From contig JAQYER010000059.1 in the NCBI GenBank assembly GCA_028723545.1, forward strand, positions 1-33,276: a stretch of 33,276 bases of DNA. Direction: 5' to 3'. This document shows, piece by piece, positions 7,254 through 9,393 of this stretch. This stretch comes from Bacillales bacterium (GTDB lineage: Bacteria; Bacillota_I; Bacilli_A; RFN20; CAG-826). Below the pieces are notes generated by a model. It worked only from the letters and a program-made list of their open reading frames with translations, ran no database searches and was not told where the DNA came from. Positions within the stretch are counted from its first letter, which is position 1. Every line of letters begins with the position of its first letter. The position numbers were made by a program, and so were the translations under genes.

Positions 7254-7445
7254 TTAATCAATAAAATAATATCCGCATAAACTAGATAAAACATCATCAT
7301 TTAGAAAGGCAATATAGTCTAAAGACATATCACTAACATTTATTCTATAAACAAAATATTTAGGCCTTTTATATTCATCATTAGAATCATGGCTTATAAG
7401 AACATATAAATTGTTATTTGAATAATAAAAACTGCTAGGCGAGGC
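7254..7445 (-). pseudogene. Possible start-less 3' gene remnant
   Basis: 63 stop-free codons in very AT-rich DNA (...FYYSNNNLYVLISHDSNDEYKRPKYFVYRINVSDMSLDYIAFLNDDVLSSLCGYYFID*). No 5' start or RBS; followed by a terminator-like hairpin. Confidence 0.35.
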
Positions 7446-7458
7446 CTAACAGTTTTTA
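7426..7458 (-). terminator. Intrinsic terminator of the S10-spc-alpha cluster (after rplQ)
   Basis: Minus strand AAAAACTGTTAGGC-CTC-GCCTAGCAGTTTTT. Confidence 0.88.
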
Positions 7459-7473
7459 ATAGATTAAGTTTAA

Positions 7474-7869
7474 TTATTTAACAAATTCAACAATAACTAA
7501 TTTTGCGTTATCGCCTTTACGAACTCCAGCTTTAATTCCGCGAGTGTATCCACCATTACGTGATACATAACGAGGACCGAGTTCATTAAATAATTTTTCT
7601 AAAGCTGTAACATCATTTTCCTTGTAATTGCGAACAACTGCTGCGGCTTGACGACGTGCATGTAAATCACCACGTTTTGCAAGAGTTACTAAATGATCCG
7701 CTAAAGATTTAATTGCTTTAGCTTCGCCACTAGTAACAGTGACACGTTCATTAAGGACTAATGTAGTAACAACGTTTCTTAAATAATTTTCATGTTTAGA
7801 TTTTGTGTAAGCGGCTTTGAAGCGAACACCTGTTTTTCCATGAACATTTTTACGACCTTGTGCTGCCAT
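7474..7869 (-). CDS. rplQ: 50S ribosomal protein L17 (atypical N-terminus)
   Basis: LVTLAKRGDLHARRQA, KLFNELGPRY..RNGGYTR, RKGDNA; follows rpoA. Confidence 0.96.
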   Translation of the reverse strand: MAAQGRKNVHGKTGVRFKAAYTKSKHENYLRNVVTTLVLNERVTVTSGEAKAIKSLADHLVTLAKRGDLHARRQAAAVVRNYKENDVTALEKLFNELGPRYVSRNGGYTRGIKAGVRKGDNAKLVIVEFVK

Positions 7870-7890
7870 AATATTTCTCCTTTATTTTGT

Positions 7891-7982
7891 GGTATTTCCT
7901 TGATTAATTAATATTATTTCAAGGTTTCTGACCTTCAATAAGCTTATAAAATAAGCACATTATCGAAGACATTTTTCTACTA
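7891..7982 (-). ncRNA. Candidate structured cis-regulatory RNA (rplQ leader) homologous to the rpoA 3' CDS
   Basis: Stems UCUUCGAUAA/UUAUUGAAGG, GCUUAU/AUAAGC and CCUUGA/UCAAGG. Three colinear blocks match rpoA 8011-8017, 8072-8089 and 8188-8212. Confidence 0.6.
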
Positions 7983-7994
7983 GCTAAATTTAAA

Positions 7995-8984
7995 TTATTC
8001 AGCAGTATAATCCTTGAATGAAAGACCTAATTCAAGTAATTTATCTTTAACTTCTTTAAGTGATTTCTTTCCAAGGTTTCTGACCTTCATCATTTCTTCT
8101 TCAGTTTTTTGAGTTAATTCAGCAACTGTAGCAATAGCTGCTCTCTTGAGACAGTTATTTGAACGAACAGAGAGGTCAAGTTCTTCGATAGGCATATTTT
8201 CGAAGACATTTTCGACTACTTGAACTTCTTCTTTAATCATGTTGATTTCTTCAACAGCTTGTTCAAGTTCGACGAATGGACGGAAGTTTTCAACGAGCAT
8301 TTCTGCCGCTAAAGCGACAGCAGTTTGTGGCTTCATTGATCCGTTTGTCCAAACTTCGAGAGTTAATTTATCGAATTTTGAATCGTGGCCAACACGAGTT
8401 GGTTCAACGAAATATCTTGCTCTTGTGACTGGTGAATAATTTGAGTCTGTAGCAATTAAACCGACTTCTGTACCGTGTTCTTTGGCGGTTTTACGATCTG
8501 GTTTATTAGCTTCAGATGTAACATATCCACGTCCATTACGAGCATGAAGTGTCATCTTAAGATGTCCACCTTCAGTAACATGAGCAATAACGAGATCAGG
8601 ATTAATAACTTCAACTAACCCTGGAGTGCGAATATCTTGAGCTGTAACGACCTTTGGTCCTTCGACATCAATTTCGAGGAGTTTTGGTTCGTTGTCTTCG
8701 TCATCGATACGAAGAACTAAATCTTTAAGATTGAGAATGATGGCGGTAACGTCTTCTTCAACACCTTTAAGTGCACTGAATTCATGACGGGCACCTTCGA
8801 TTTCGACCGCAAATACGCTTGCGCCTGGAAGGCTTGATAATAATACTCTACGAAGTGAATTACCAAGTGTAAGTCCGTATCCTCTTTCAAGTGGTTCGAT
8901 AACGAATCTTCCAAATTCGCCAGTTGCATCGACAGTTGCTACTTTGAATATAGCTTTTTCGAATGGTTTTGCTAATTTTGCCAT
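7995..8984 (-). CDS. rpoA: RNA polymerase subunit alpha
   Basis: EPLERGYGLTLGNSLRRVLLSSLPG; alpha-CTD IEELDLSVRSNNCLKRA...RNLGKKSL. Confidence 0.99.
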   Translation of the reverse strand: MAKLAKPFEKAIFKVATVDATGEFGRFVIEPLERGYGLTLGNSLRRVLLSSLPGASVFAVEIEGARHEFSALKGVEEDVTAIILNLKDLVLRIDDEDNEPKLLEIDVEGPKVVTAQDIRTPGLVEVINPDLVIAHVTEGGHLKMTLHARNGRGYVTSEANKPDRKTAKEHGTEVGLIATDSNYSPVTRARYFVEPTRVGHDSKFDKLTLEVWTNGSMKPQTAVALAAEMLVENFRPFVELEQAVEEINMIKEEVQVVENVFENMPIEELDLSVRSNNCLKRAAIATVAELTQKTEEEMMKVRNLGKKSLKEVKDKLLELGLSFKDYTAE

Positions 8985-9003
8985 GTTTCTTTCCTCCTAA
9001 GTA

Positions 9004-9393
9004 TTATCCACGTGGACGCTTTGGTGGACGGCATCCGTTGTGTGGAATTGGTGTAGTATCGGTAATTGATAATACTTGTAATCCAGCTGTTGCAAGTGAG
9101 CGAACAGCAGATTCACGACCTGGACCTGGACCTTTGACTAATACATCAACTGTACGAAGTCCTTGATCATATGCAGCTTTACCAGCAGATTCACCAGCGA
9201 GTTGAGCAGCAAATGGTGTGCTCTTCTTTGCGCCTTTGAATCCTAATGCTCCTGCACTACTCCATGCAATGACATTACCTTGTTCATCAGAAATAGTAAT
9301 GATTGTGTTATTGAAAGTAGAGTGAATGTGTGCGACACCCTTAGTATATGCACGTTTAATTTTTTTCTTACGTGAATTTGATTTTGTTGCCAT
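9004..9393 (-). CDS. rpsK: 30S ribosomal protein S11
   Basis: [39 protein letters not shown]. Confidence 0.99.

What the first reader, a model, noticed from the sequence alone, without database searches (positions are those of the whole stretch)
7870..8220. The rpoA-rplQ spacer is a collapsed, structure-preserving copy of the rpoA 3' coding region
Seen: three colinear blocks are shared between the spacer and the alpha-CTD coding sequence. Block A is 7951-7975 vs 8188-8212 (22/25), block B is 7920-7937 vs 8072-8089 (18/18, UGAAGGUCAGAAACCUUG on the mRNA), and block C is 7897-7903 vs 8011-8017 (UCAAGGA). The DNA between blocks shrinks from 98 to 13 nt and from 54 to 16 nt. The retained blocks pair with each other (A with the 5' half of B, the 3' half of B with C). 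The spacer copy closes these arms with short hairpins (CUUCGAUAA/UUAUUGAAG, GCUUAU/AUAAGC), and unpaired junction bases (AAAAUG, CAGAAA) are identical in both copies. The element ends just before the rplQ SD. Inference: a functional multi-stem RNA, such as an L17 or other protein-binding autoregulatory leader, was duplicated out of the rpoA ORF and miniaturised, leaving tandem sites. Random decay of a duplicate would not be expected to keep only mutually pairing segments.
Basis: partly seen in the sequence, partly recalled or inferred. Interest (0 to 1): 0.9.

Follow-up and report, generated by a model that had tools for sequence, protein, structure and literature searches.

The report
Gene-fragment relic between rpoA and rplQ
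The long gap between the RNA polymerase alpha gene and the L17 ribosomal protein gene in this pig-gut bacterium is a young insertion, seen in this species only, copied from the alpha gene's own tail; it folds into two hairpins, but nothing shows that it is a conserved regulatory RNA.

Summary
The core observation holds. On the minus strand, the 125-nt rpoA-rplQ spacer (7994-7870) carries two colinear copies of rpoA C-terminal coding sequence. Block A matches 22/25 and block B 18/18; B extends ungapped to 31/39. The gapped alignment beat all 1000 shuffles. Block C, a 7-mer, is at chance level.

The spacer is a lineage-specific insertion of about 113 nt:
- All 28 relatives with both genes (18 congeners, 10 same order) have spacers of 2-19 nt.
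- So do 50 metagenome loci.
- 0 of 400 genomes of the order hold the insert.
- A roughly 90%-identical relative in two runs has GGAG directly after the rpoA stop.

It is not a misassembly: contigs from four studies span it with 0-2 differences. Rfam gives no match, including the L17 leaders. The helices claimed inside rpoA are missing in the 17 congeners.

The insert does fold better than chance (78-nt core -19.6 kcal/mol, z -4.5). Its differences from the source also promote structure. However, the 3' arm of hairpin 1 is an inverted copy of block A's end, which is what template-switch mutation produces.

Best reading: a relic of a partial duplication or template-switch event, with no function shown. 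An exapted mRNA structure is not excluded.

The parts
7995..8984 (-). rpoA (RNA polymerase alpha subunit, 329 aa), the source of the copied blocks
   Evidence: ORF. It is 52-78% identical to rpoA of relatives by tblastn. It is the only alpha-CTD coding sequence in the genome.
7474..7869 (-). rplQ (ribosomal protein L17, 131 aa)
   Evidence: ORF. It is 51-76% identical to L17 of relatives.
7870..7994 (-). rpoA-rplQ spacer, 125 nt. Relatives have 2-19 nt here.
7882..7994 (-). Lineage-specific insert of about 113 nt, lying between the rpoA stop codon and the rplQ ribosome-binding site
   Evidence: In relatives the stop codon is followed directly by GGAG or by 2 nt and the ATG. A ~90%-identical relative in runs X17 and X15 joins 8031 to 7874 through 40 letters that end in a stop followed by GGAG. 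There is no match in 400 genomes of the order or in 36 congeners.
7951..7975 (-). Block A copy (source 8188-8212), 22/25 identical
   Evidence: D2. Measured on a window one base further on (7974-7950), the copy matches the genome's own rpoA at 21/25 and the rpoA of 28 relatives at 12-16/25.
7899..7937 (-). Block B copy. The core 7920-7937 is 18/18 identical to 8072-8089. An ungapped extension down to 7899 matches 13/21.
   Evidence: D1. A 13/21 match in that fixed register occurs in 2 of 970 rpoA windows and in 0.57% of windows across the 33-kb window.
7897..7903 (-). Block C, a 7-mer also present at 8011-8017. It forms the 3' arm of hairpin 2. Homology is not demonstrable.
   Evidence: 1795 of 2000 shuffles give as good a match.
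7938..7950 (-). 13-nt linker with no counterpart in rpoA. After a TTT loop, its 10 nt are the reverse complement of the 3' part of block A, apart from a 3-nt gap.
   Evidence: One search printed the reverse complement of the A 3' part next to the linker. One search found no match of the linker to rpoA (2000/2000 shuffles as good).
7929..7971 (-). Hairpin 1: a 12-bp outer stem, a 3-nt internal loop, a 6-bp inner stem and a UUU loop
   Evidence: the 47-nt stretch folds at -13.2 kcal/mol, z -3.82, and 0 of 200 shuffles fold as well.
7898..7924 (-). Hairpin 2: 6-bp and 4-bp stems
   Evidence: the 31-nt stretch folds at -6.4 kcal/mol, z -3.03, and 2 of 200 shuffles fold as well.
7877..7882 (-). rplQ ribosome-binding site (AAGGAG), 7 nt upstream of the ATG. 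It is unpaired in the predicted folds.
   Evidence: Sequence; folds.
8188..8212 (-). Source of block A within rpoA (codons for ENVFENMPI)
8051..8089 (-). Source of block B within rpoA (codons for MKVRNLGKKSLKEV, the helix-hairpin-helix region of the alpha C-terminal domain)

Best explanation
The spacer is a young insertion of about 113 nt, found only in this species-level lineage. It was built from the genome's own rpoA C-terminal coding sequence by a replication or repair accident. The accident was either a partial tandem duplication of the rpoA 3' end that later lost most of its interior, or a single complex template-switch event. Such an event would copy block A, snap back on it (giving the inverted-copy linker), rejoin at block B through the shared GAAG, and end before the rplQ ribosome-binding site. 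The two hairpins are then largely a by-product of how the sequence was made. The insert is carried passively on the operon mRNA. It separates rplQ from rpoA by 125 nt instead of 2-19 nt. With its ribosome-binding site left single-stranded, rplQ is probably translated by independent initiation rather than by coupling to rpoA.

Shown: the homology, the origin from the genome's own gene, the absence from relatives, the reality of the DNA, and the predicted fold.

Inferred: the mutational mechanism, and the lack of a dedicated function.
For: Homology is real. A matches 22/25, B 18/18, and B extended 31/39. The colinear alignment beat 1000 of 1000 shuffles.

The copy comes from this genome's own gene. 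A matches its own rpoA at 21/25 and the rpoA of 28 relatives at 12-16/25. It shares the G000-specific GTC (Val) codon, where congeners have AAA or AAG. Where the two copies differ, rpoA keeps the genus consensus, so the changes are on the spacer's side.

The insert is lineage-specific.
- 28 of 28 relatives with both genes have 2-19 nt spacers.
- 50 of 50 metagenome loci whose L17 aligns from residue 1-5 have 2-19 nt.
- No relic was found in 36 congeners (the best hit was a 26-nt match at E 6.9e-4 elsewhere).
- No relic was found in 400 genomes from 70 genera of the order.
- A ~90%-identical relative lacks it (joint 7874/8031).

The DNA is real. The stretch is held in 20 runs of 11 studies. Single contigs from 4 runs of 4 studies span the spacer with 0-2 differences.

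It is a single-copy sequence in the genome, and the only alpha-CTD copy.

It matches no known RNA. No Rfam hit in 7300-9100 at E<=10 falls in the spacer. The scan found no promoter-like site in 7400-8400 and one terminator-like site, outside the spacer at 7436-7448.

The source region is not a conserved structure. The central pairs of the A:B and B:C helices are unpaired in 16-17 of 18 congeners. The B self-hairpin is likewise not conserved.

A mutational signature is present. The linker is the reverse complement of A's 3' end. Template switching at imperfect inverted repeats is a described source of multi-nucleotide changes that perfect hairpins. For this I saw only the search listings and abstract starts of PMC7202029 and PMC8604942.
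Against: The insert is more structured than chance. The 78-nt core folds at -19.6 kcal/mol against -9.0 +/- 2.3 for shuffles (z -4.5, 1 of 200 as good). I chose that sub-window after seeing the fold. The whole 113 nt gives z -2.5 (4/200), and 141 nt with flanks gives z -1.4 (17/200).

The 9-11 differences from the rpoA source raise the predicted stability from about -9 to -12 up to -19.6 kcal/mol.

Decay is uneven. There are 0 changes in the 18-nt B core and 8 in the next 21 nt. The hypergeometric probability is about 0.003 (my arithmetic, not a tool result).

Random colinear blocks from the source are as mutually complementary in only about 1% of 20,000 draws.

The three variant events seen in other samples sit at unpaired positions. 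They are two at 7912 and one at 7957.

All of this also fits selection for the fold. The tandem-duplication version additionally needs the spacer's tail to be a decayed rpoA end, and that is not statistically supported.
Confidence: 0.62

Rival explanations
1. Exapted structured intercistronic RNA. The rpoA-derived insert arose as above, but its two hairpins are now kept by selection. One option is a barrier to 3'-to-5' exonucleases or a double-strand RNase site, which would set different stabilities for the rpoA and rplQ parts of the operon mRNA. Another is an insulator that uncouples rplQ translation from rpoA.
For: The core folds far better than shuffles (z -4.5). The substitutions relative to the source promote structure. 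The G+C-containing B core is intact while the flanking copy drifted towards A/T. Variants seen in other samples lie in loops. Contigs from RNA libraries of three studies span the spacer. The insert has persisted in a small 1.3-Mb genome.
Against: The insert is absent from every relative examined, so there is no covariation and no test of conservation. Only three variant events were seen. Contigs cannot show RNA ends or RNA levels. No U-tract, promoter or known motif is present.
Confidence: 0.28
2. One reading: an autoregulatory leader bound by L17 (or by the alpha subunit), with tandem binding sites, one inside the rpoA ORF and a miniaturised copy in front of rplQ.
For: The position is right, immediately upstream of rplQ. 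It is a structured RNA. L17 has been proposed as a ligand of a leader in other phyla (PMC7247131, passages read).
Against: There is no match to any Rfam family, including the L17 leader and L17DE, at E<=10. The published L17 leader is from Actinobacteria and Proteobacteria, and L17DE lies downstream of L17 genes. The supposed parent structure in rpoA is not conserved in 17 congeners. None of the 28 relatives has the spacer, so they express L17 without it. In the rpoA fold, block A does not pair with B. The ribosome-binding site is not sequestered in the predicted folds.
Confidence: 0.05
3. An assembly artefact: a chimeric or mis-joined contig that created a false partial repeat.
For: The genome is a fragmented metagenome-assembled genome of 166 contigs. 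The conserved rpoA motif at 8036-8119 attracts contigs of many other organisms (depth table).
Against: Independent contigs from four runs of four studies cover 7700-8116 or 7700-8300 in one piece with 0-2 differences. Twenty runs of 11 studies hold at least 85% of the sampled words.
Confidence: 0.01

Closest known systems
Relics of partial gene duplication, and templated (template-switch, quasipalindrome-associated) insertions
   Same: A short, colinear, same-strand copy of a neighbouring gene's sequence lying in non-coding DNA. It has lost its reading frame, exists in one lineage only, and carries an adjacent inverted copy that makes a near-perfect hairpin.
   Different: The event itself cannot be reconstructed. 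The 12 nt after the rpoA stop and the 17 nt before the ribosome-binding site have no demonstrable source. The uneven decay and the structure-promoting changes go beyond what a simple decaying duplicate predicts. The mechanism is taken from the literature (PMC7202029 and PMC8604942, search listing and abstract starts only) and from recall. It was not tested here.
L17 ribosomal-protein leader (Eckert and Weinberg 2020, PMC7247131; represented in Rfam)
   Same: A structured RNA placed directly upstream of rplQ.
   Different: That motif is reported from Actinobacteria and Proteobacteria and rests on covariation (passages read). Here there is no covariance-model match at E<=10, no conservation beyond one species, and a recent origin from coding sequence.
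L17DE motif (Firmicutes)
   Same: An RNA element associated with the L17 gene in low-G+C Gram-positive lineages.
   Different: It lies downstream of L17 genes. This element lies upstream. No Rfam match was found anywhere in 7300-9100 apart from chance-level hits.
S4-mediated control of the alpha operon (rpsM-rpsK-rpsD-rpoA-rplQ) and S4 leaders
   Same: The same operon. This is the known route by which rplQ and rpoA expression is tied to ribosomal-protein levels.
   Different: Those operators sit at the 5' end of the operon or upstream of rpsD (Table 1 of PMC7247131; the E. coli details are recalled). They are not between rpoA and rplQ. This window has no rpsD between rpsK and rpoA.
Intercistronic stabilising hairpins and REP-type palindromes (recalled from general knowledge)
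   Same: Stable stem-loops between two cistrons of one operon that can block 3' exonucleases and give the cistrons different stabilities.
   Different: REP elements are multi-copy families. This sequence is single-copy in the genome, and no effect on stability has been measured.

Membership tests
L17 r-leader / L17DE (Rfam ribosomal leaders) | Match to the family covariance model | tested here: not met
   cmscan of 7300-9100 on both strands with permissive filters at E<=10 gave five chance-level hits (mir-374, SBRMV1_UPD-PKd, group-II-D1D4-5, SurA, rliD). None lies in the spacer.
L17 r-leader / L17DE (Rfam ribosomal leaders) | Position relative to rplQ (leader: upstream; L17DE: downstream) | tested here: inconclusive
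   The element is upstream of rplQ. That fits a leader but not L17DE. Position alone does not define membership.
Autoregulatory ribosomal-protein leader (general) | Conserved across related genomes, with covariation in the stems | tested here: not met
   It is absent from 28 of 28 relatives, 36 congeners, 400 genomes of the order and 50 metagenome loci. The helices in the rpoA source are not conserved.
Autoregulatory ribosomal-protein leader (general) | Mimicry of the protein's rRNA binding site | not testable with these tools
   No 23S rRNA gene was found in the assembly, and no L17-rRNA contact model is at hand.
Autoregulatory ribosomal-protein leader (general) | Structure occludes the ribosome-binding site or start codon, or forms a terminator | tested here: not met
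   The AAGGAG and the ATG are unpaired in the minimum-energy and centroid folds. There is no terminator-like site in the spacer.
Relic of partial gene duplication / templated insertion | Significant colinear, same-strand similarity to a nearby gene | tested here: met
   (0 of 1000 shuffles reach the observed score).
Relic of partial gene duplication / templated insertion | The copy is closest to the genome's own gene, not to orthologues | tested here: met
   Block A matches its own rpoA at 21/25 and 28 relatives at 12-16/25. Block B matches at 18/18 against 10-17/18.
Relic of partial gene duplication / templated insertion | Absent at the orthologous site of relatives (derived state) | tested here: met
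Relic of partial gene duplication / templated insertion | Junction signatures (microhomology, inverted copy of adjacent sequence) | tested here: inconclusive
   The linker is the reverse complement of block A's 3' part, with a 3-nt gap, and it runs into block B at a shared GAAG. This is suggestive, but it is a single event and cannot be tested statistically beyond the hairpin's shuffle result (0 of 200).
Multi-copy palindromic or mobile element (REP/MITE-like) | Several copies in the genome | tested here: not met
   Only the self-match has E<=0.001 in the genome. At E<=1 the other hits are the rpoA blocks and short A/T-rich chance hits.
Intrinsic terminator | G+C-rich stem followed by a U-tract | tested here: not met
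   The only terminator-like site in 7400-8400 is at 7436-7448, downstream of rplQ.

The most novel reading that the evidence does not exclude
A structured RNA caught shortly after its birth. A fragment of the rpoA coding sequence was copied into the rpoA-rplQ junction, and template switching or selection turned it into a two-hairpin element. That element is now maintained because it tunes the stability or translation of the last two cistrons of the alpha operon, possibly by binding a protein such as L17. It would be a dated, single-lineage example of a cis-acting RNA arising from coding DNA.
Probability: 0.15. Interest if true: 0.55.

Novelty: new member of a known kind. Interest (0 to 1): 0.27.

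Why it matters
As it stands, this is a clean and well-bounded example of how an intergenic spacer grows. In an otherwise tightly packed ribosomal-protein operon, a fragment of the upstream gene was copied in, together with a snap-back inverted repeat. That created stable hairpins in one step.

It also serves as a caution. Structure plus similarity to a gene does not make a riboswitch-like leader.

If the hairpins turned out to be selected, the locus would be a rare datable case of a cis-acting RNA born from coding sequence. It would also be a natural experiment, because close relatives lack it, on what uncoupling rplQ from rpoA does.

Tried and rejected
Rfam scan of 7300-9100: only chance-level hits.

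Promoter and terminator scan of 7400-8400: nothing in the spacer, so a new promoter or an attenuator is not supported.

Search for more copies in the genome and for a second alpha-CTD: none found, so a mobile or repeated element and a paralogue source are rejected.

My first idea was that the spacer's last ~20 nt are the decayed original rpoA end plus its stop codon. Local alignment of the part 3' of block B, and of the 5' flank, is no better than shuffles. I keep the idea only as one version of the origin.

Foreign origin of the copied blocks: rejected, because block A is much closer to the genome's own rpoA.

Conserved structure inside rpoA: rejected.

Comparison with the 23S L17 site: not possible, because no 23S was found in the assembly.

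The metagenome scan for conspecific or intermediate forms returned nothing closer than 77% amino-acid identity. Less-collapsed versions of the duplicate could therefore not be looked for. In 26 of its 76 usable loci, my simple projection of the L17 start fell inside rpoA (-1 to -28), because L17 aligned only from residue 9-88. I did not resolve those further. Four of the 80 loci lacked rplQ.

Locus L023 (G007) had rplQ only, at a contig end, and was dropped. L020 was too short for the 240-nt tail and was left out of the alignment. That alignment used G000 plus the 17 congeners whose rpoA tail is complete.

RNA-library contigs cover the spacer. They cannot show transcription, ends or levels, so I draw no conclusion on expression or processing.

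Supplements of PMC7247131 were not opened. They may hold the L17 motif alignments.

No structure-prediction, protein-search or complex jobs were needed.
Full report
**What is there.** All genes in this part of the window are on the minus strand. The order is infA (10174-9953), rpsM (9787-9413), rpsK (9393-9004), rpoA (8984-7995) and rplQ (7869-7474), followed by a hairpin with a T-run. The spacers rpsM-rpsK and rpsK-rpoA are 19 nt each. The rpoA-rplQ spacer is 125 nt (7994-7870). The genome is a 1.32-Mb, 166-contig, 29.9% G+C metagenome-assembled genome. Public runs that hold this stretch are mostly labelled pig gut or faeces.

**Check of the observation.**
- Block A (7951-7975 vs 8188-8212) matches 22/25. 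Block B (7920-7937 vs 8072-8089) matches 18/18.
- The repeat finder extends B without gaps to 39 nt (7899-7937 vs 8051-8089, 31/39). The extra 21 nt match 13/21. In that fixed register this occurs for 2 of 970 windows of rpoA and 0.57% of windows across the 33-kb window, so the extension is probably homologous.
- A gapped colinear alignment of the spacer to the last 306 nt of rpoA scores 71.6, against 38.0 +/- 5.2 for dinucleotide shuffles. None of 1000 shuffles reaches it.
- Genome-wide there are only 57 exact direct repeats of >=16 nt within 400 nt. The B pair is one of them.
- Block C, the 7-mer at 7897-7903 and 8011-8017, exists but is at chance level. 1795 of 2000 shuffles of the spacer's 3' part give as good a local match.
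- The 5' flank and the 13-nt linker likewise have no significant counterpart in rpoA.

**It is real DNA.** The stretch 7600-8300 is held by 20 runs from 11 studies, 6 of them RNA libraries. I laid four of these 20 runs, each from a different study.
- Single contigs span 7700-8300 (X13, X15) or 7700-8116 (X17, X19) with 0-2 differences.
- The only differences inside the spacer are at 7912 (T>A plus one inserted base in X15; T>C in X19) and 7957 (A>G in X19).
- X13 may be the source sample of this genome. The other three are RNA libraries, which can also hold DNA.
- Misassembly is therefore excluded. Expression is not shown.

**It is lineage-specific.** I extracted the rpoA stop to rplQ start interval from every fetched relative.
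- All 28 with both genes on the locus (18 species of the same genus, 10 of other genera in the order) have 2-19 nt. The ribosome-binding site either abuts the stop codon or lies inside the rpoA end.
- Of 80 metagenome loci found with the rpoA protein, 76 carry both genes. The 50 whose L17 aligns from residue 1-5 have 2-19 nt. The other 26 were not resolved by my projection, but the projected L17 start in each falls inside rpoA (-1 to -28), which suggests a short spacer rather than a long one.
- The spacer as a DNA query finds nothing comparable in 36 other species of the genus. The best hit is a 26-nt match at E 6.9e-4 elsewhere.
- The 113-nt insert finds nothing at E<=1e-4 in 400 other genomes from 70 genera and 8 families of the order.
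- The closest evidence comes from the laid runs. A relative about 90% identical in the flanking genes, present in X17 and X15, joins 8031 to 7874 through 40 letters that end in a stop codon followed directly by GGAG. That is the short ancestral arrangement.
- The insert is thus younger than that split.

**Where it came from.**
- Block A of the spacer matches this genome's own rpoA at 21/25, measured on a window shifted by one base. It matches the rpoA of 28 relatives at only 12-16/25. Block B is 18/18 to its own gene against 10-17/18.
- The copy shares the G000-specific Val codon, where congeners have Lys.
- At the positions where the copy and the source differ, rpoA keeps the genus consensus, so the changes happened in the spacer.
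- There is no second alpha-CTD in the genome and no other copy of the spacer.
- The insert is therefore an intragenomic copy of rpoA coding sequence, not foreign DNA and not a mobile element.

Two routes fit this origin.
- Route (a): a tandem duplication reaching from about 8220 to just past the stop codon, whose downstream copy then lost about 85 nt between A and B, and more after B.
- Route (b): one complex template-switch event.

Route (b) is suggested by the linker. After a TTT loop, its 10 nt are the reverse complement of the 3' part of block A, apart from a 3-nt gap, and it runs into block B at a shared GAAG. This is the form expected from a snap-back copy followed by microhomology rejoining. 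Template switching at imperfect inverted repeats is a described mutational mechanism. I saw only the search listings and abstract starts of PMC7202029 and PMC8604942; the rest is recalled. Route (a) predicts that the spacer's tail is a decayed rpoA end, and that is not statistically visible.

**Structure.** The predicted fold has two hairpins.
- Hairpin 1 (7971-7929) has 12 bp, a 3-nt internal loop, 6 bp and a UUU loop. It folds at -13.2 kcal/mol, z -3.8, with 0 of 200 shuffles as good.
- Hairpin 2 (7924-7898) has 6 + 4 bp. It folds at -6.4 kcal/mol, z -3.0, with 2 of 200 shuffles as good.
- The 78-nt core folds at -19.6 kcal/mol against -9.0 +/- 2.3 for shuffles (z -4.5, 1/200).
- I picked these sub-windows after seeing the fold. 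The whole 113-nt insert gives z -2.5 (4/200). The 141 nt including flanks gives z -1.4 (17/200).
- The ribosome-binding site and the start codon of rplQ are unpaired in all folds.
- There is no U-tract terminator and no promoter-like site in the spacer.

**Is the structure inherited from a functional RNA inside rpoA?** No.
- In the rpoA mRNA (8215-8005; z -1.9, 8/200), B's 3' half pairs with C. Block A, however, pairs with the adjacent TCGAAGA, not with B.
- I aligned G000 plus 17 congeners and counted pairs. The central pairs of the A:B helix are unpaired in 17 and 16 of 18 sequences. Three pairs of the B:C helix are unpaired in 17, 16 and 17 of 18. Overall pairing is 64.7%, against 57.1% when the partner is slid by one column.
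- The B self-hairpin is also not conserved.
- These helices exist as such only in G000.

**Signals that keep a functional reading alive.**
The core energy drops from -19.6 to -9.2 or -11.7 kcal/mol. Only 3 or 14 of 3000 random substitution sets of the same size reach -19.6.
- Most of this effect is hairpin 1 (5/3000).
- Decay is uneven: 0 of 18 changes in the B core against 8 of 21 just beyond it. Five of those eight remove a G or C there. The hypergeometric probability is about 0.003 by my own arithmetic.
- Random colinear triples of blocks of the same sizes from the source are as mutually complementary in about 1% of 20,000 draws.
- The three variant events in other samples are all at unpaired positions.
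- Each signal is post hoc or small, and each is also produced by templated mutation. Together they leave an exapted structure as a real possibility.

**Comparison with known systems.**
- Rfam 15 has no match in the spacer even at E<=10.
- The published L17 leader candidate is from Actinobacteria and Proteobacteria. The L17DE motif of Firmicutes lies downstream of L17 genes (PMC7247131, passages from sections 5, 13 and 14). Neither fits.
- S4 leaders act at the 5' side of the operon (same paper, Table 1).
- A comparison with the L17 site on 23S rRNA could not be made, because the assembly has no 23S gene.
- Two literature searches turned up no description of a regulatory element between rpoA and rplQ in Firmicutes-like bacteria. 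This is a statement about those two searches only.

**Verdict.** The interpretation as a conserved, protein-binding multi-stem leader is not supported.

The best-supported account is a young, single-lineage relic of a duplication or template-switch accident, whose hairpins were largely created by the event itself (confidence about 0.6). A selected role as an intercistronic mRNA structure stands at about 0.3. An L17 or alpha autoregulatory site stands at about 0.05.

Interest is modest. It is a tidy example of spacer growth and possible RNA birth, seen in one uncultured gut species, with no comparative handle yet.

Noticed in passing
window 7423-7461 (minus strand, just downstream of rplQ): An inverted repeat with 18-nt arms (89% complementary, 3-nt loop) is followed by a T-run on the minus strand. 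It is probably the intrinsic terminator of the operon. The consensus scan flagged its core on the plus strand at 7436-7448, so it may work in both directions, towards cysS (7108-5741) as well.
   Followed up: partly
window 7919-7972 (minus strand): The insert contains a 17-codon open frame, with its ATG at 7972-7970 and its stop at 7921-7919. I read it directly. No ribosome-binding site lies in front of it, so it is probably meaningless.
   Followed up: no
window 8036-8119: In all four laid runs, contig depth piles up over the helix-hairpin-helix coding part of rpoA, and many contigs of other organisms begin or end there. This nucleotide stretch is conserved across many gut species and breaks assemblies. 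It is not a feature of this locus.
   Followed up: partly
window 8188-8212 and 8011-8017 (rpoA): G000's rpoA carries lineage-specific codons: Asn-Val-Phe where congeners have Asn-Lys-Phe or Asn-Lys-Leu, and Phe-Lys-Asp where they have Phe-Arg or Phe-His followed by Asp or Glu. These changes happen to create the complementarity with block B, so the rpoA helices exist only in this genome. Whether that is coincidence was not pursued.
   Followed up: partly
window 9004-9393 to 7995-8984: There is no rpsD between rpsK and rpoA, and the spacers rpsM-rpsK and rpsK-rpoA are 19 nt each. The 125-nt rpoA-rplQ spacer is the outlier in an otherwise compact operon.
   Followed up: no
G000 contigs C76:1811-1893, C60:2058-2148, C56:1692-1783: These are tandem arrays with periods of 33-34 nt, seen as exact repeats of 19-49 nt. 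They turned up in the genome-wide scan for local direct repeats. Their nature was not examined.
   Followed up: no
window 7982-7997 vs 8037-8052: The first 12 nt of the spacer, together with the rpoA stop codon and the base before it, are 81% complementary (13 of 16) to an rpoA segment (pair I6). This could be another inverted templated piece. In this A/T-rich sequence, however, it is at the level of the other chance inverted pairs listed.
   Followed up: no
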